Shown: piece after piece, positions 39,747-45,014 of the stretch
Position numbering within the stretch: position 1 is the first letter of the stretch
Layout: every line of letters starts with the position of its first letter
Virus genome (UHGV): UHGV-1384413
Source: a virus
Strand: one strand, 5' to 3'
DNA length: 64,000 nt
Made by a program: the position numbers and the translations under genes
The notes under the pieces: generated by a model
Database searches by the model: none
The model's input: the letters and a program-made list of their open reading frames with translations, nothing else
What the model was told of the DNA's origin: nothing

Positions 39747-40019
39747 ATGTCAAGCTGGATTAATCAAGAAGTCGAATCACGTTTTAATGCTATCTGGGAT
39801 CTCGTAGAAAAAGAGGACGGAACATCAAGCCCCTACCTCAACAATTTGGAATTCCATTTTGTGGAAGCGATGAACGCAGAACATGATCACGAAGGTGGCG
39901 CGGATGAGTTCGCTAAAGGTTATGGCTTTAACAATGCCAACGAAATGATCGAGTCGGTTGTACTCCAAGCCGAGGAAGATTATCAATTAAAAACGCTTGA
40001 ATTCTGCCGCCGCAAGTAA
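39747..40019 (+). CDS. hypothetical protein (90 aa)
   Basis: ORF with AGAGAGGA RBS. Confidence 0.5.
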   Translation: MSSWINQEVESRFNAIWDLVEKEDGTSSPYLNNLEFHFVEAMNAEHDHEGGADEFAKGYGFNNANEMIESVVLQAEEDYQLKTLEFCRRK

Positions 40020-40079
40020 TAAGATAATGACAAGGGCCGAAAGGCCCACTAATCAGAACCGCACAAAGAGGAAAACATC

Positions 40080-40343
40080 ATGAAACGTCTTGATCAGCTC
40101 AAATTAGTTCAATATATGGCTTATCGTGTTCTTGAAGTACAGAAAGGCAGCAAAAAAGAAGTTTGCGAGAAAGCGTACAAGATCTTTACTCGCAAAAAAG
40201 ACGATTGGATGTTACGCCAGACTAAAAAGGCTGACATCTTGGGGTACCTGGAAGAAGAGATCCGGCTTGAAGAACAAGAAGAGATCCGCCGTAGTGAGGC
40301 AGATTATCAGGCAGCTTGGGAAAACTGGATGAGCAACAAATAA
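40080..40343 (+). CDS. hypothetical protein (87 aa)
   Basis: ORF with AAGAGGA RBS. Confidence 0.5.
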   Translation: MKRLDQLKLVQYMAYRVLEVQKGSKKEVCEKAYKIFTRKKDDWMLRQTKKADILGYLEEEIRLEEQEEIRRSEADYQAAWENWMSNK

Positions 40344-40406
40344 TACAACAAGTTACATGGTCAGGGGCAATAAAGCCCCTTGATCACACAAAAATTATGC
40401 TATCCT

Positions 40407-40435
40407 TGTTGACAGAGATCGGCAGTTTTGCTATA
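40407..40435 (+). promoter_or_regulatory. sigma70-type promoter
   Basis: TTGACA, 17-bp spacer, TATATT; approximate coordinates. Confidence 0.55.
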
Positions 40436-40485
40436 TTCTTTTTGAAGGGCAGTTGTAAGAAAATTAACTAAGAGGTAAAAACACC

Positions 40486-40905
40486 ATGAACATTAAATCT
40501 GATAATCCGGCATATAGCTTTGATAACGCTTTTTGTCACGGTCCGGCGGCGAAAGGATTCGAAATCGATGGTAAACTAATTATTGTCAATGTTGACGGGG
40601 AAGAGGTTGCAGTATATCCGGTGGCAGACGTTAAAAGCCGTCTACAATGCCGCATCGATGTTACCGCCTACCAGCTTGATCCGGTCCGGGTAGTTGCCCT
40701 GGTCCTGGAAGAAGAAATTAAAGCAATGCACCACAGCAACAAGTTTATTGGTGACGCTCAAGATAATATGCAGGTATGCCGCTATAAAGTTAATGAAGTG
40801 CTTAAAGAGTACGGCTATAAGGATTTAATGATCAAGCGTGATGAAAAATTCCGCTACCGTAACGACCTGGCAAATCGGATTTTTGAAATATACGAATCAT
40901 TATAA
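40486..40905 (+). CDS. hypothetical protein (139 aa); last gene of plus-strand block
   Basis: ORF with AGAGGTAA RBS; followed by strong terminator. Confidence 0.55.
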   Translation: MNIKSDNPAYSFDNAFCHGPAAKGFEIDGKLIIVNVDGEEVAVYPVADVKSRLQCRIDVTAYQLDPVRVVALVLEEEIKAMHHSNKFIGDAQDNMQVCRYKVNEVLKEYGYKDLMIKRDEKFRYRNDLANRIFEIYESL

Positions 40906-40923
40906 TTTCTTAACTGAATTATC

Positions 40924-40950
40924 AAGGGGCTTAAAGGCCCCTTTCTTTTT
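40924..40950 (+). terminator. intrinsic terminator closing the plus-strand block
   Basis: AAGGGGC-ttaaag-GCCCCTT hairpin plus TCTTTTT; approximate coordinates. Confidence 0.6.
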
Positions 40951-41539
40951 GTCTGCTCTTCTCCTACCATAAACGGCCCTACCTGGCAAGTGGAATAATT
41001 GACTAGCCATCAATCCCACACACTGTATAAATATACATGGAAAATAACTATTGCATAATTTTTCATTGTGTGGTAGCAAGGCCATTTTTACCCGTTTTCT
41101 CTCCCAAAATTGCACGTAATGCCGCTATTGCACAAAATTTAACCTGATGCACATCTTCAACATCTTGTCAATAACTAAAAATCTTTATAAGTCATACACT
41201 TACACAACCATAAAGCCGTGTTCTACGTGAAAAATCGAGTATAACTATAGCCGCCAGATCTCAGAATTTACGTACGTTCACCATTCTATAGCCTGCAAAG
41301 TATTTATTCCAACCACAGAATAACGGAATAGTCAATACCTGCATAAAATAATTATTCGTGTAAACTGCATAACATAAATCAGCTCAGGTGTCAACATTTT
41401 TCGTAAGCAGTTCGAAATTGTCACGATAAGTTATTATACACAAAGAAATCTTTAGTCGTCTAATGGTTACTATACATTACTAATCTGACTGGAATCATTA
41501 GATGACTAAGAGAAAGATAAGAAATAATTAATAATGTAA

Positions 41540-41850
41540 TTGTTTTACCTGTAACAATAAGGCAACTATGCAAACGAATGGCATGGCGCGACGGAGTCGC
41601 GACATAATATAAAAGCAGTAACCATCACCCCCGTGATAGTTTTTCTGCAATCTATTACTCAGATCATAGTTGCCTTGTATTTAGTTAATCATGACATAAC
41701 AAGCAAGGCAACTATAGATCTTCTAATAGTTGCCCTGCTTTTATATTATGTCATAGAAACGCCCGAAGGGGTGACCTAGTCACCTGGCATAGCCAGCGAA
41801 AGATTATTATCTTGTTAATTGTTTTCATGCAAACGAATGTCATGGCTTAT
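41540..41850. repeat. iteron / inverted-repeat cluster (candidate origin or regulatory hub)
   Basis: 9-mer GGCAACTAT in alternating orientation near 41560, 41667, 41707, 41726; 18-bp perfect inverted repeat GACATAATATAAAAGCAG near 41601 and 41735; flanking direct repeats ATGCAAACGAATG(G/T)CATGGC near 41568 and 41826; small palindromes GCGACggaGTCGC, GGTGACctaGTCACC. Confidence 0.6.
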
Positions 41851-42596
41851 CATCTATGCGTGAACTATCCAGGCGTAAACAGTCTATGCGGGAACAATCT
41901 ATACGGGAACAGTGAGGCATGCAATAGTAACAACTGTTATTGTATCCGGTGTGTTGAGTATGCCCGGTGTGTCACTATTATGTCACATTATGTCAGACAA
42001 GTTTTTCTCCTCTTTGTCAAGTGCTGCATGAAAAATTTACAAACTGGTATGGTAGCATTTTTGCGGCCCTGTTTACATTCAGAAATGTATGTATAATCCT
42101 TGGTGTGTGGGCGTTTAGACGTCTGGACGGTCAGAAGTCCGCAGGTCAATATCTAATCTATTGGTTGCTAACTATATCCCACACAAATAGTAAGAAATAT
42201 AATTGTTATGTGCGTAAACAGTAACCCATGTTATCAATCCCTGTATGTATCGCCAGTGGTGCGCATAATGGGTATTATGTTAAATTGCCCGTAATGATAA
42301 CTATTCTCACAATGATAGGTATTCTCATTCATCCCCACAAGATAGATTGCAAATGTTGTGCCACTGTGTGAACGGCCTGGTCTATTAATTTGCCTCACTG
42401 CCTCGATATTTGAGAATTATTATAAAAATGAGAAGTATTCCCATTCCGTCCGCCTGGCAGCACTCCTGTAGGACAAGCACAAAATCGGGGCATAACTGAC
42501 CTGTTCAGATATTTCTGGCTGACTCTTCAGGTCTGTGTGGGAAAAGCCAACCTCTCCGGCGGCGGGGTAGGGGTCAATTAAAAAATTTATGCGGTG

Positions 42597-42652
42597 TATG
42601 AAACCCTCTTCAGGCAAGGTGTGTATTATGGTATGAAACCCTCTTCAGGCAA
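42597..42652. repeat. two perfect 21-bp direct repeats
   Basis: TATGAAACCCTCTTCAGGCAA twice, 35 bp apart; related CTCTTCAGG and CGGCGGGGTAGGGGT motifs recur nearby; approximate coordinates. Confidence 0.55.
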
Positions 42653-43411
42653 TGATATTTGTGGGTGTGATATTTGCTGGAAAGCCAGATATGACGGGAC
42701 TCCCGGCGGGGCAGGGGTAGTACAGACAGGGAAAATGTGGGGATGTAGTTGGGGAAATTGATCAGACAGGTAGAGTATGGAATATGTTATGAATATGTTA
42801 AATATGGAGGGTGAATATCTGTAGGATTTGTGTGTAAAATCAAAGACTTAAGTGGTGTTGTGGTATTTTCTATAAATAATTCAAGTTTAATAGGTAATAT
42901 TTGTCTCTATCCACTTTGTGTGGTAAACAGATTTAGATGAAATTGGTTTACAAGTGTATACATAATATACAAATTAAAGATACAAGAAACCCCCCTCCCC
43001 CTTCGGCTACCATTCACCTTTTCCTCTGACTGGTACTTAAACACTTATTCAGACTCTTCAGGTTATCACCCATATACTATATGGCAGTGACTGGTGTCCT
43101 CCGGCCCCTCTTTCGTCACCCGTCCGCTTCGCCAAGCTAATGCCATAGCCAAATGTTCGGTTGTTCACCCTGTTCACTCAGGTGTATCTCCATACCCCTT
43201 CAAACCGAAGAGAACAGAAAACCCGAATTACTCGGTAAAAGAAAAGAGAAGAACTTAATTTTATCAAGATAGGCAAGAATGTCAAGGGATGACTGCTCAC
43301 TAAACAAGCAAACAGTCATGTGTGGTAGGTAAGTGATTGTAGTGGTGGAAAATTTAGTTGAAAGATGTGTTATAGTGCTCCCAGCACTTTAGCCGGGCAG
43401 CTAATTGTGTG

Positions 43412-43627
43412 TCAGTCCAGAGGTTCATCCTCCACTTCACTGAAATCAATGTTCATGGTCTCTTCCCAACCATCGATCTCAGCACAAGAGTGAAGTTCTT
43501 TAGGGTTTACTCCCAAAGCCTCAGCAACAGAGTCTATATTTAACACCTCTGGCAGGTATGATTCATCAAATTCAAGGTAAATCAGGCCACGAGTGTTGTC
43601 AGCCCCACCAAATATTTCTATTTTCAT
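43412..43627 (-). CDS. hypothetical acidic protein (71 aa)
   Basis: ORF with GAGGAG RBS; last gene of minus-strand block. Confidence 0.5.
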   Translation of the reverse strand: MKIEIFGGADNTRGLIYLEFDESYLPEVLNIDSVAEALGVNPKELHSCAEIDGWEETMNIDFSEVEDEPLD

Positions 43628-43746
43628 GAAATCTCCTCTGGAAATGAGAGTGTGAACAGGGTTATACGTTCCAATATGATGGAATTATGCACGTTTGCCT
43701 CTTCAGGCCATGCTTTAGCATGATAAACTTATGTGGGCTCGGTGCT

Positions 43747-43959
43747 TCATAGTCTCCCACCTCTGAACTCTTCGTGCTCAGGCATAATAGAGAACCAGAT
43801 ATCTACGATGTCTTCCCACGTTAGGTCATCAGCCTCAGGATCTACCTGGAGCGAAGATGGAGAATCTTCAGAATCGAAGTTTTCCTCTTTCACTGGCTCA
43901 GCCAAGGGACATATGGTCACTCCTTTGGATGTCTCTTCAGATGCATGTGTGTTGATCAT
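43747..43959 (-). CDS. hypothetical acidic protein (70 aa)
   Basis: Minus ORF preferred over overlapping plus ORF on composition and operon direction. Confidence 0.4.
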   Translation of the reverse strand: MINTHASEETSKGVTICPLAEPVKEENFDSEDSPSSLQVDPEADDLTWEDIVDIWFSIMPEHEEFRGGRL

Positions 43960-44265
43960 GTTCCACCCGTGAGTATTCCGGCAACAGCTGCTATGGACGT
44001 GATGATCATCAGGATCACCACTAAAACCTCTGACAATGTTTTCATTGTGTATTCCATATTATCCAAACAATGTGTGGATATTATCACAGGAGCGGTAATG
44101 TGTCAACAGAAGCGCCGCGAGGGTTTGGTTAAAATCCGAGCGTATGGTGATTTGGGTCAAAACGGACGTGCGTTCTCGCTACGCTCGAAATAGAGAGTTG
44201 TTTACAGGCCGTCCTTAAACGCTCTGTAATAAGATTATCCATCTAAGGTATGCAATCGTGCACCA

Positions 44266-44295
44266 GATAAAGAAAAGGACGCCACAGAGCGTCCT
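44266..44295 (-). terminator. intrinsic terminator (minus strand)
   Basis: GGACGC-cacaga-GCGTCC hairpin followed on the minus strand by a T-run; approximate coordinates. Confidence 0.45.
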
Positions 44296-44319
44296 AGGTG
44301 CCTTAAATTTGATATTTTG

Positions 44320-44631
44320 CTATACCCATGAGGGCTTGTCCAGGTTGGAGTAACTGAAAGGGGTCAAAAGGTGACTGTCAAAATCTTTCAAACTGTCCAG
44401 ATCTTTTTCCTCGTCCTGACACCATCTGTGTCTACATTTATTGTTGTAGTGCATGGAATGCATAGCGTTCTGCAACTTAATAGGCACAAGTGATTCAGGA
44501 GTAGATAGAATTGTTGGGTATGCCAGGACTATCTCAAACAATGGAAACACATCGAAACTGAAGTCTATTTCTGCTGAGGTTGCTGGCATATAGGAGTATT
44601 TAGCTGTCGTTGTAGACATAATCCACCTCAC
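44320..44631 (-). CDS. hypothetical protein (103 aa)
   Basis: ORF, 4-nt overlap with upstream gene. Confidence 0.5.
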   Translation of the reverse strand: MRWIMSTTTAKYSYMPATSAEIDFSFDVFPLFEIVLAYPTILSTPESLVPIKLQNAMHSMHYNNKCRHRWCQDEEKDLDSLKDFDSHLLTPFSYSNLDKPSWV

Positions 44632-44960
44632 ACAGGCTTGATAATACCTTCACCGAATAACTCTTTATATTTAATCTTATCAGGATCCCACTCCTGGATA
44701 ATTTCGAAGACAATATCCAGCCCGGGGATAATCACTTCTCCAGTATCAAGTCTGGCAAGAACAAAACCGGAAGGTTGAATGGTTTCCCAGTTACGGCGAT
44801 CAGAATAGAATACTTCGAAAATATCACCAACCTCAATCCGTTTCTGTTGCTCAAGATGATCCAGGTTCTCTTTCATGCGGATGCAGCGTATTTTACGTGC
44901 AGGCCACAGGCCACCTGCATCACGTTCATTTAGCTCTTTTACAGTAATCGGCATTAACAT
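44628..44960 (-). CDS. hypothetical protein (110 aa)
   Basis: ORF in minus-strand operon. Confidence 0.5.
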   Translation of the reverse strand: MLMPITVKELNERDAGGLWPARKIRCIRMKENLDHLEQQKRIEVGDIFEVFYSDRRNWETIQPSGFVLARLDTGEVIIPGLDIVFEIIQEWDPDKIKYKELFGEGIIKPV

Positions 44961-45014
44961 CTCTGATCTCCTTCATAGGTAGTAAAAAGAGGGGCTTTGA
45001 GCCCCTCTTTGTCA

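What the first reader, a model, noticed from the sequence alone, without database searches (positions are those of the whole stretch)
42519..43410. Direct-repeat family and GT-rich tract in the gap between the convergent blocks
Two perfect 21-bp direct repeats (TATGAAACCCTCTTCAGGCAA), further CTCTTCAGG copies near 42527, 43050 and 43698, a repeated CGGCGGGGTAGGGGT-like motif, and GTGTGG-rich stretches occupy the right half of the 2.5-kb non-coding gap. The gap could hold a packaging site, a genome terminus or terminal-repeat boundary, or small RNAs.
Basis: seen in the sequence. Interest (0 to 1): 0.45.

Follow-up and report, generated by a model that had tools for sequence, protein, structure and literature searches.

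The report
Repeats flanking a phage genome end
The repeats are real and lie just inside the physical left end of an rV5-like phage chromosome, next to a 459-bp terminal repeat, in a conserved gene-free stretch that also holds an unannotated, almost invariant unit with its own promoter; they are most likely DNA-end processing or packaging signals.

Summary
GTATGAAACCCTCTTCAGGCAA occurs twice perfectly. CTCTTCAGG occurs 8 times in the window against 0.56 expected, five of them on one strand within 1.2 kb. CGGCGGGGYAGGGGT occurs twice, and GC skew reaches +0.6.

The window is a Vequintavirus (rV5-like myophage), and the 2.5-kb gap is the unexplained 'non-coding' box of the 2013 rV5 paper. The gap is the concatemer junction. 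Five deposited genomes (EdH4, HdK5, Gotham, ECP2309, YN3) carry window 41996-42454 as an identical 459-bp direct terminal repeat at both ends, and Korf 2019 reports 458 bp. The flagged interval therefore starts 65 nt inside the left genome end. A Phapecoctavirus has a 328-bp repeat in the equivalent gap.

The CTCTTCAGG copies resemble the motif at the repeat boundary (CAGCACTCCTGTAGG), which varies in copy number among relatives. A different short-repeat array flanks the other boundary.

At 43007-43251 lies a block that is nearly invariant in 23 distinct sequences. A strong minus-strand sigma-70 promoter drives it towards the end, and it stops at G5AG6.

Best reading: cis-acting end-processing or packaging signals plus an end-directed transcription unit. 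The location is well supported; the function is inferred. This is a new member of a known kind, of moderate interest.

The parts
40906..43411 (.). ORF-free gap between the convergent gene blocks. It is the rV5 'non-coding' box and corresponds to the concatemer junction / terminal region of the genome.
   Evidence: ORF list. No annotation under the match in 122 Vequintavirus records. [quoted passage not shown] Record ends map here.
41853..41990 (+). Hypervariable array of short direct repeats (RCGKRAAC, 15-nt period; 4 copies here, many more in L011). It lies immediately outside the left boundary of the terminal repeat, which is the inner flank of the right genome end.
   Evidence: family D1; mean identity 0.34 at 41850-41899, the lowest in the gap; alignment with L011; tandem arrays in L021; motif coordinates.
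41996..42454 (.). Direct terminal repeat (DTR), present once in this circularised or concatemer-form assembly. In the virion it would be at both ends. It contains three AATGAnAnnTATTCyCA motifs (42293, 42311, 42427).
   Evidence: In EdH4 and HdK5 the first 459 nt equal the last 459 nt, and both map to window 41996-42454. Gotham, ECP2309 and YN3 show the same arrangement, annotated as repeat_region in Gotham. Korf 2019 reports 'short terminal redundancies of 458 bp'. 80-90% of columns are invariant, with variable junctions on both sides.
42455..42475 (+). Boundary motif TGGCAGCACTCCTGTAGGACA immediately after the DTR, and an indel hotspot (0, 37 or 50 nt extra in relatives, made of further CTCC(W)GTMG units).
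   Evidence: phAPEC8 has AGCAC(C)TTCT directly after both of its DTR boundaries.
42523..42531 (+). CTCTTCAGG copy 1
42560..42574 (+). CGGCGGGGTAGGGGT: paired G-tract 1. An insertion hotspot follows it in FV3, APCEc02 and L011.
42596..42652 (+). Two 22-nt perfect direct repeats (35-nt period), each containing CTCTTCAGG (copies 2 and 3).
42654..42676 (+). GATATTTGTGGGTGTGATATTTG. The GATATTTG(T)GGG motif is also found next to the DTR in phAPEC8 and at the Septuagintavirus junction.
42704..42718 (+). CGGCGGGGCAGGGGT: paired G-tract 2
42760..42985 (.). AT-rich spacer (GC 0.28). It contains an invariant 42843-42902 core with TATAAATA (42871-42878). Its right part (about 42905-42980) is replaced by unrelated sequence in LL12, C9 and A147.
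42990..43001 (-). G5AG6 on the minus strand (C6TC5 on the plus strand). It marks the left edge of the invariant block, and its length is polymorphic. A related C5TC5TC5 run sits at the Septuagintavirus junction.
43007..43251 (-). Near-invariant block and candidate minus-strand transcript directed towards the genome end. It contains CTCTTCAGG copy 4 (43054) and the hairpin CCATAT-NNN-ATATGG (43070-43084), in which only the loop varies.
   Evidence: 13 variable columns in 245 nt among 23 distinct sequences, 7 of them singletons. It is the most conserved 250 nt in 40000-45000. It is at least 96% identical in all 119 genomes, whereas the adjacent CDS falls to 85%. Stops occur in all minus-strand frames.
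43258..43285 (-). Sigma-70 promoter: TTGACA (43285-43280), 16-nt spacer, extended TGa-TAAAAT (43263-43258).
   Evidence: 11/12 match with TG. In L011 the hexamers are kept while the spacer is rewritten and lengthened to 18 nt, and invariance begins about 7 nt after the -10. rV5 does not annotate it.
43289..43319 (.). Invariant inverted repeat ATGACTG-N17-CAGTCAT directly upstream of the -35.
43375..43387 (-). Hairpin GTGCTGGGAGCAC after the stop of the 71-aa gene (43412-43627); a likely terminator of the rightward gene block.
43699..43707 (+). CTCTTCAGG copy 5, in the intergenic space between two minus-strand genes.
   Evidence: Disrupted in L011.

Best explanation
The gap is the place where the two ends of the linear virion chromosome meet in a concatemer or a circularised assembly. 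Window 41996-42454 is a short direct terminal repeat. In window orientation the chromosome starts at 41996 and ends, a whole genome later, at 42454.

The flagged interval is therefore the first unique DNA inside the left end. Its CTCTTCAGG / CTCC(W)GTAGG repeat family, GATATTTG(T)GGG motifs and paired G-tracts are most likely cis-acting signals. The terminase would use them to recognise the junction and to cut at the two repeat boundaries, with the repeat being duplicated during maturation as in T7-type phages. A second, different short-repeat array (41853-41990) flanks the other boundary.

Further in lies a strong host-type promoter (43285->43258, minus strand). It drives a roughly 245-270-nt, almost invariant unit towards the end, up to a G5AG6 run followed by AT-rich DNA. 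I read this as an end-directed transcription unit: either a non-coding RNA, or a device that delivers RNA polymerase or an R-loop to the junction.

Shown: the repeats, the conservation, the promoter signature and the position relative to deposited genome ends.
Inferred: terminase binding, the cutting mechanism, and any role of the transcript.
For: 1. Identity: the window is a Vequintavirus, and the gap equals the rV5 'non-coding' box.

2. Terminal repeat: Korf 2019 reports 458-bp terminal redundancy for EdH4 and HdK5. In both records the first 459 nt equal the last 459 nt and map to window 41996-42454. Gotham (annotated repeat_region), ECP2309 and YN3 have the same repeat with the same boundaries. 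Pr121LW and ECP2303 start or end exactly at 41996.

3. The repeat boundaries coincide with the only poorly conserved junctions of the gap: 41850-41995, and the indel hotspot at 42457.

4. Sister genus: Mt1B1_P17 has a 328-bp DTR inside the equivalent ORF-free gap after the homologous 139-aa gene. This matches Korf's 328 bp.

5. Boundary motif: phAPEC8 has AGCAC(C)TTCT after both cuts. The window has CAGCACTCCTGTAGG after the right boundary, with 1-3 copies in relatives. CTCTTCAGG is a close variant of this motif, and all five copies point the same way within 1.7 kb of the end.

6. Motifs shared across genera next to or inside the DTR.

7. Invariant block and promoter signature.

8. Precedent: in T3/T7, packaging specificity lies within 5% of the termini, and RNA polymerase pausing at the concatemer junction starts maturation (PMC3276506).
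Against: - The rV5 paper and two PhageTerm-based reports call these genomes circularly permuted with headful packaging. However, short-read assemblers collapse DTRs, and PhageTerm is unreliable on transposase libraries.
- I could not examine reads. The termini rest on deposited records and one sentence in a paper, and later submitters may have copied the earlier convention.
- No terminase binding data exist.
- The two flanking arrays use different motifs.
- The G-tracts and the invariant block are not found in Phapecoctavirus, so they are not general requirements of this end type.
- RNA folding energy is unremarkable (z = -1.0), and there is too little variation to test covariation.
- No canonical terminator ends the proposed transcript.
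Confidence: 0.5

Rival explanations
1. A stand-alone regulatory or structural non-coding RNA locus. The invariant minus-strand unit would be a trans-acting phage RNA unrelated to the genome ends. The CTCTTCAGG copies would be promoter or operator elements: on the minus strand, three copies read T(T/G)GCCTGAAGAG-N9-10-CATAAT, like a -35/-10 pair.
For: Conserved promoter hexamers with a diverged spacer. Near-invariance exceeding that of the adjacent CDS. No ORF on the minus strand. Common polymorphisms fall in predicted loops or are GU<->AU. A promoter-like site at 42652->42625.
Against: No Rfam family matches at E<=1. The fold z-score is only -1.0. Covariation is untestable. There is no intrinsic terminator. 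This reading does not explain why the motifs cluster at, and resemble, the terminal-repeat boundary.
Confidence: 0.2
2. An R-loop-primed origin of replication. Host RNA polymerase starts at 43250 and makes a G-rich RNA. At the G5AG6 run (C-rich template) this forms a persistent hybrid or hybrid G-quadruplex, as at ColE1 RNA II or mitochondrial CSB II. The phage Pol A / gp4-like replisome then extends it into the AT-rich 42760-42985 segment.
For: Strong promoter. G5AG6 followed by U-rich sequence and a segment of GC 0.28. Three of the window's four paired G-tracts lie here. The phage encodes a Pol A polymerase and a T7 gp4-like helicase-primase (rV5 paper).
Against: Gene orientation and cumulative GC skew make this a convergence point, not a divergence point. 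There is no DnaA-box enrichment. No initiator gene or iteron set is tied to it. The G-run and block are absent from phAPEC8. No replication data exist.
Confidence: 0.13
3. A DNA-ejection pause or stop signal near the leading end, like the repeat-rich injection stop region of T5 first-step transfer. This comparison is from my own knowledge and was not checked here.
For: Repeat-rich, non-coding and end-proximal.
Against: There is no evidence of two-step transfer in Vequintavirus. It is not known which end enters first. No genes lie between the end and the signal to be expressed first.
Confidence: 0.04
4. Missed small protein-coding genes; some records annotate 40-55-aa ORFs here.
For: APCEc02, HMD-6, phiWec196 and others annotate hypothetical proteins. 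There is a 54-codon GTG ORF at 43094-43258 (+).
Against: Indels of 37, 50, 23 and 1 nt occur among close relatives. There is no Shine-Dalgarno sequence. The variable sites show no third-position bias (my count). The 21-aa minus-strand ORF at 43011->42946 is not conserved in LL12-type genomes and is frameshifted by G-run length variation.
Confidence: 0.05
5. Neutral spacer DNA, with the repeats being slippage products of no function.
For: Copy-number variation and a 540-bp duplication in I29.
Against: The gap is as conserved as the coding DNA around it, or more so, in about 120 genomes. Motif counts are far above chance.
Confidence: 0.03

Closest known systems
T7/T3 concatemer junction (short terminal repeat, end-flanking short-repeat arrays, end-proximal host promoters including leftward A0, RNA polymerase pause at the junction)
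   Same: A short DTR of a few hundred bp, present once per junction. Arrays of short direct repeats lie immediately on both sides of the repeat. A host-type promoter points towards the end. Packaging specificity lies in the terminal few per cent of the genome, and transcription into the junction is needed for maturation (PMC3276506). The T7 SRL/SRR arrays are from my own knowledge (Dunn & Studier 1983) and are not in the held library.
   Different: This is a 136-kb myovirus without its own RNA polymerase. The two flanking arrays use different motifs. There is no sequence similarity. Both adjacent gene blocks are transcribed towards the ends. No functional data exist.
Phapecoctavirus (phAPEC8 / Mt1B1_P17) terminal region
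   Same: The homologous 139-aa gene is followed by an ORF-free gap holding a short DTR (328 bp). The AATGAnAAnTATTCTCA and GATATTTGGG motifs are shared, and an AGCACyyCT-type motif sits at the boundary.
   Different: No CTCTTCAGG copies, no paired G-tracts and no homolog of the invariant block. The genes after the gap run in the same direction.
Lambda cosB / SPP1 pac / P1 pac: arrays of small-terminase binding sites beside the cut site
   Same: Several same-orientation short repeats lie within a few hundred bp of the cleavage position.
   Different: Those systems give cohesive ends or headful series, and the sites lie next to the terminase genes. Here the neighbours are small genes of unknown function. 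This comparison is from my own knowledge.
phi29 pRNA gene
   Same: A small non-coding unit next to the left genome end, transcribed outward towards that end (from my own knowledge).
   Different: No match to Rfam, which holds the pRNA family. rV5-like phages use a conventional terminase. A packaging role for this unit is pure conjecture.
ColE1 RNA II / mitochondrial LSP-CSB II / T4 oriF R-loop origins
   Same: A promoter, then a transcribed conserved segment, then a G-run in the RNA over a C-run in the template, then AT-rich DNA. G5AG6 closely resembles the human CSB II G-run (from my own knowledge).
   Different: No evidence of initiation here. The site is a point of convergent transcription and skew. 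There is no antisense regulator and no RNase H site.

Membership tests
Short direct-terminal-repeat (DTR) genome ends | The same sequence is present at both ends of the linear genome. | tested here: met
   In EdH4 and HdK5 the first 459 nt equal the last 459 nt at 100%. Gotham, ECP2309 and YN3 have two copies at the record ends. Gotham annotates a repeat_region. This was tested on deposited records of relatives, not on this genome's virion DNA.
Short direct-terminal-repeat (DTR) genome ends | Boundaries are fixed and shared by relatives. | tested here: met
   All five records map to window 41996-42454. Pr121LW and ECP2303 start or end exactly at 41996.
Short direct-terminal-repeat (DTR) genome ends | Read-start pile-ups at both boundaries and doubled coverage over the repeat in virion DNA. 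| not testable with these tools
   No read data are available. The published 'circularly permuted' calls used Nextera libraries, on which PhageTerm performs poorly.
T7-type end-flanking short-repeat arrays | Arrays of short direct repeats lie directly adjacent to the terminal repeat on both sides. | tested here: met
   The 41853-41990 array (15-nt period) ends 5 nt before the DTR. The CTCC(W)GTAGG / CTCTTCAGG series starts 9 nt after it.
T7-type end-flanking short-repeat arrays | The same repeat unit is used on both flanks. | tested here: not met
   The left array is RCGKRAAC and the right array is CTCYWnnAGG. No copies of one occur in the other.
Headful pac site (P22/SPP1/P1 type) | The site lies in or beside the small terminase gene. 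| tested here: not met
   Seven flanking genes match only PHROGs of unknown function, plus one transcriptional regulator.
Headful pac site (P22/SPP1/P1 type) | Circularly permuted, terminally redundant virion DNA. | tested here: inconclusive
   The literature is split. Permuted. Defined 458-bp terminal redundancy: plus the records.
R-loop-primed replication origin (ColE1 / T4 oriF / mt CSB II) | A promoter, then a G-run in the RNA over a C-run in the template, then an AT-rich unwinding segment. | tested here: met
   Promoter 43285->43258. G5AG6 at 43001->42990. GC is 0.28 at 42760-42985.
R-loop-primed replication origin (ColE1 / T4 oriF / mt CSB II) | Replication actually initiates there. | not testable with these tools
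   The skew and gene-orientation pattern argues weakly against it.
Any described RNA family (Rfam 15, including phage pRNA, ToxI, ribozymes, 6S, tmRNA) | A match to a covariance model. | tested here: not met
   No match at E<=1 in 40000-45000 on either strand. No tRNA or tmRNA.
Type III toxin-antitoxin antitoxin repeats (ToxI-like) | A tandem array of about 34-36-nt repeats followed by a toxin gene. | tested here: not met
   Only two copies, and the first is diverged in relatives. There is no downstream ORF and no Rfam match.

The most novel reading that the evidence does not exclude
The near-invariant 245-270-nt minus-strand unit (43251->42986) is a new class of phage non-coding RNA or co-transcriptional R-loop that acts in cis at the concatemer junction. 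Host RNA polymerase, launched from a dedicated promoter, would stall at G-tract obstacles about 0.5 kb from the repeat boundary and so license terminase cutting or duplication of the terminal repeat. This would be an RNA- or transcription-dependent end-maturation mechanism in a large myovirus that lacks its own RNA polymerase.
Probability: 0.12. Interest if true: 0.75.

Novelty: new member of a known kind. Interest (0 to 1): 0.4.

Why it matters
Most of the roughly 120 deposited Vequintavirus genomes are opened arbitrarily and described as circularly permuted. The gap has stayed an unexplained 'non-coding' box since 2013. Recognising it as the terminal region, with a conserved 459-bp repeat, gives three things: a rational genome start, a packaging strategy of defined ends (which bears on generalised-transduction risk for these therapy candidates), and a short list of cis elements to test.

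The unannotated promoter-driven invariant unit is the most conserved sequence in the neighbourhood. It can be tested cheaply in EdH4, for which Cas13a-assisted editing already exists.

Tried and rejected
- Rfam at E<=1 and ARAGORN found nothing.
- Single-sequence folding of both strands of both halves gave z-scores from -1.0 to +1.0.
- A consensus fold over 22 sequences was inconclusive. Only about four independent polymorphic events exist, and they are compatible with a fold but not significant.
- blastn (distant mode) and nhmmer profiles of five gap blocks against phAPEC8, A73 and W70 gave no significant homology. Only short motifs are shared.
- Scans of metagenome, viral and genome contigs with an invariant 26-mer gave only 5, 2 and 0 loci, all Vequintavirus. 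No divergent homologs were gained for covariation.
- DnaA boxes are not enriched.
- There are no Chi sites in the region.
- Coding potential was rejected: six-frame stops and frame-breaking indels. The hydrophobic 21-aa ORF MVAEGGGGFLVSLICILCIHL is not conserved.
- The resemblance of CCUGAAGAG to a hammerhead core (CUGANGA) was considered and dropped. The GAAA element is on the opposite strand and Rfam finds no ribozyme.
- A ToxI-like reading of the 35-nt tandem repeat was dropped (see the membership test).
- Literature searches for transcriptomes or any description of RNAs from this gap found nothing.

Full report
**1. What the window is**

The 2.5-kb region matches 122 phage records at 90-99% identity. 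All are Vequintavirus (rV5-like myophages), and almost none has any annotation under the match.

The gap (40906-43411) lies between a plus-strand block ending with a 139-aa gene (40486-40905) and a minus-strand block starting with a 71-aa gene (43412-43627). [quoted passage not shown] The flanking genes match only PHROGs of unknown function.

**2.

- The perfect direct repeat is 22 nt: GTATGAAACCCTCTTCAGGCAA at 42596 and 42631.
- CTCTTCAGG occurs 8 times in 64 kb against 0.56 expected. Five copies are on the plus strand between 42523 and 43707. The other three sit in coding sequence.
- CGGCGGGGYAGGGGT occurs twice, against 0.03 expected.
- TGTGTGG occurs 29 times, against 9.1 expected.
- GC skew reaches +0.60, then flips to -0.35 around 42950.
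- Of the four paired G-tracts (G4+ N1-2 G4+) in the whole window, three lie within 42564-43001. Two are on the plus strand and one is on the minus strand, on either side of a GC-0.28 segment.

**3. Conservation**

I used an alignment of 12 genomes across 40000-45000 and an alignment of 23 distinct sequences across 42900-43420. In both, the gap is as conserved as the surrounding genes or more so.

The extreme is 43007-43251. Only 13 of its 245 columns vary, and 7 of those are singletons. Across all 119 genomes this block is at least 96% identical, while the adjacent CDS segment drops to 85%. In OX460980, for example, the figures are 99.6% and 85.1%.

The left edge of the block is a C6TC5 run (G5AG6 on the minus strand). 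Left of that run, LL12-type genomes carry unrelated sequence.

The right edge is a sigma-70 promoter on the minus strand: TTGACA, 16 nt, TGa-TAAAAT, an 11/12 match. In the most divergent genome (L011) both hexamers are kept, while the spacer is rewritten and is 2 nt longer. Invariance begins about 7 nt after the -10. This is the signature of a real promoter with a transcribed, constrained product on the minus strand.

- The minus strand has stops in every frame.
- No Rfam family or tRNA matches.
- Folding energy is not distinctive (z = -1.0).
- The few polymorphisms are compatible with a fold but too few to test one.

**4. The key to the region: genome ends**

Hit coordinates showed that many independent records begin or end inside this gap. 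Korf et al. [quoted passage not shown]

I fetched both ends of both records. The first 459 nt equal the last 459 nt, and they map to window 41996-42454. A search with that segment found three more records (Gotham, ECP2309, YN3) carrying it at both ends with the same boundaries. Two further records start or end exactly at 41996 (Pr121LW, ECP2303). Gotham annotates the segment as a repeat_region.

The two boundaries coincide with the only poorly conserved junctions in the gap. One is the hypervariable short-repeat array at 41853-41990 (mean identity 0.34). The other is an indel hotspot at 42457 (0, 37 or 50 nt).

The window therefore shows the junction form, with one copy of a direct terminal repeat. 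In window orientation the virion chromosome runs 41996 -> ... -> 42454. The flagged interval is the first unique DNA inside the left end, starting 65 nt from the boundary.

**5. Conflict with the literature**

The rV5 paper and two PhageTerm-based reports call these genomes circularly permuted or headful.

The PhageTerm report used Nextera libraries. [quoted passage not shown]

I weigh the five concordant records more heavily. I could not inspect reads, and later submitters may have followed earlier ones.

**6. Generality**

The 139-aa left-flank gene has 85-89% homologs in Phapecoctavirus and Septuagintavirus. In phAPEC8 it is followed by a 1.5-kb ORF-free gap that is unannotated in 74 records.

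Mt1B1_P17 has a 328-bp DTR that maps inside that gap. This equals the figure Korf gives for a phAPEC8-like phage.

Sequence homology between the gaps is not detectable, but motifs recur:

- AATGAnAAnTATTCTCA occurs inside both DTRs.
- GATATTTG(T)GGG occurs near the right boundary in all three genera.
- phAPEC8 has AGCAC(C)TTCT directly after both cut positions. The window has CAGCACTCCTGTAGG after its right boundary, present in 1-3 copies in relatives.

CTCTTCAGG differs from CTCCTGTAGG by one substitution (C to T at the fourth position) and by TC replacing TGT. All five copies point the same way within 1.7 kb of the end. I therefore read the flagged repeat family as dispersed copies of the boundary motif.

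The Septuagintavirus junction also has a C5TC5TC5 run, one CTCTTCAGG, and an array of CTCTGTGGACAAT-like repeats with a period of about 21 nt.

**7. Mechanism (inferred)**

By analogy with T7/T3, packaging specificity would lie within the terminal 5% of the genome. There, RNA polymerase pausing at the concatemer junction starts maturation. From my own knowledge, short-repeat arrays flank the terminal repeat in T7.

On that basis, the repeats on both flanks are the likeliest recognition signals for terminase. Terminase must cut at 41995/6 and at 42454/5 and regenerate a second repeat copy.

The end-directed promoter and its invariant product, stopping at a G5AG6 run before AT-rich DNA, could be any of three things:

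- a non-coding RNA;
- a way of delivering polymerase or an R-loop to the junction;
- an R-loop origin.

None of these can be separated with the data available. Evidence against an origin is the convergent gene orientation and skew, and the lack of DnaA boxes. Evidence against a general end-maturation requirement is the absence of the block and the G-tracts from phAPEC8.

**8. Verdict**

The finding is real and non-random. Its 'terminus / terminal-repeat boundary' guess is right for the gap but 65 nt off for the interval.

The terminal repeat itself is already on record (one sentence in a paper, and five GenBank entries). The following appear undescribed in the literature I could search:

- the link to the rV5 'non-coding' box;
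- the flanking arrays;
- the cross-genus boundary motifs;
- the invariant promoter-driven unit.

I class it as a new member of a known kind (DTR-type phage ends with flanking cis elements), of moderate interest. There is a minority chance that the invariant unit is something new.

Noticed in passing
L003 (phage I29) 4889-4948 and 4937-5480; window 42238-42779: I29 carries a tandem duplication of window 42238-42779. This covers part of the DTR plus the repeat-rich flank. The junction is a 60-bp inverted copy of 42721-42779. It could be a genuine snap-back rearrangement at the end region or an assembly artefact.
   Followed up: partly
window 41552-41752: The left half of the gap holds a perfect 18-nt inverted repeat (41601-41618 / 41735-41752). 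It encloses four copies of AAGGCAACTAT in alternating orientation. FV3 lacks 41587-41827 entirely.
   Followed up: no
window 41760-41803; L011 3883-3926: A 44-nt segment containing the palindrome GGTGACCTAGTCACC is missing from its place in the most divergent genome (L011). It is present there, 100% identical and inverted, in the intergenic spot corresponding to window ~43710, where it disrupts the fifth CTCTTCAGG copy. It behaves like a tiny mobile hairpin element.
   Followed up: no
window 40486-40905: The 139-aa gene next to the gap is absent from FV3, APCEc02, EdH4 and HdK5. It is nevertheless present at 85-89% aa identity in two other genera, always beside the terminal gap.
   Followed up: partly
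window 41166-41192 (+): A second candidate promoter (TTGTCA ... TATAAG) keeps its hexamers in L011 while three spacer positions change. The left half of the gap may hold its own transcription unit.
   Followed up: no
L015 (phage W70) 6591-7073: W70 has a 160-aa ORF inserted right after the C5TC5TC5 run at the Septuagintavirus junction. A73 lacks it. Its sequence (e.g. 'GEIDHINGDRLDNSPPNL') looks like an HNH homing endonuclease; this was not scanned.
   Followed up: no
L014 (phage A73) 7190-7360: An array of about seven CTCTGTGGACAAT-like repeats, with a period of about 21-22 nt, lies at the Septuagintavirus convergent junction. GATATTTGTGGG ... GATATTTGGG follows it.
   Followed up: partly
whole window: TGTGTGG / CCACACA is three-fold over-represented across the whole 64 kb (29 against 9.1 expected), not only in the gap. 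At 44071 it directly follows the -10 of a strong minus-strand promoter.
   Followed up: no
database records: Nineteen 'Campylobacter phage' records (MG0656xx, UNVERIFIED) are Vequintavirus genomes at 90-95% identity to E. coli phages. One PLSDB 'plasmid' (CP057073.1, 137.6 kb) is also a Vequintavirus genome.
   Followed up: no
window 41996-42018: The very first bases of the proposed left end form an imperfect inverted repeat: GACAAG-N10-CTTTGTC.
   Followed up: no
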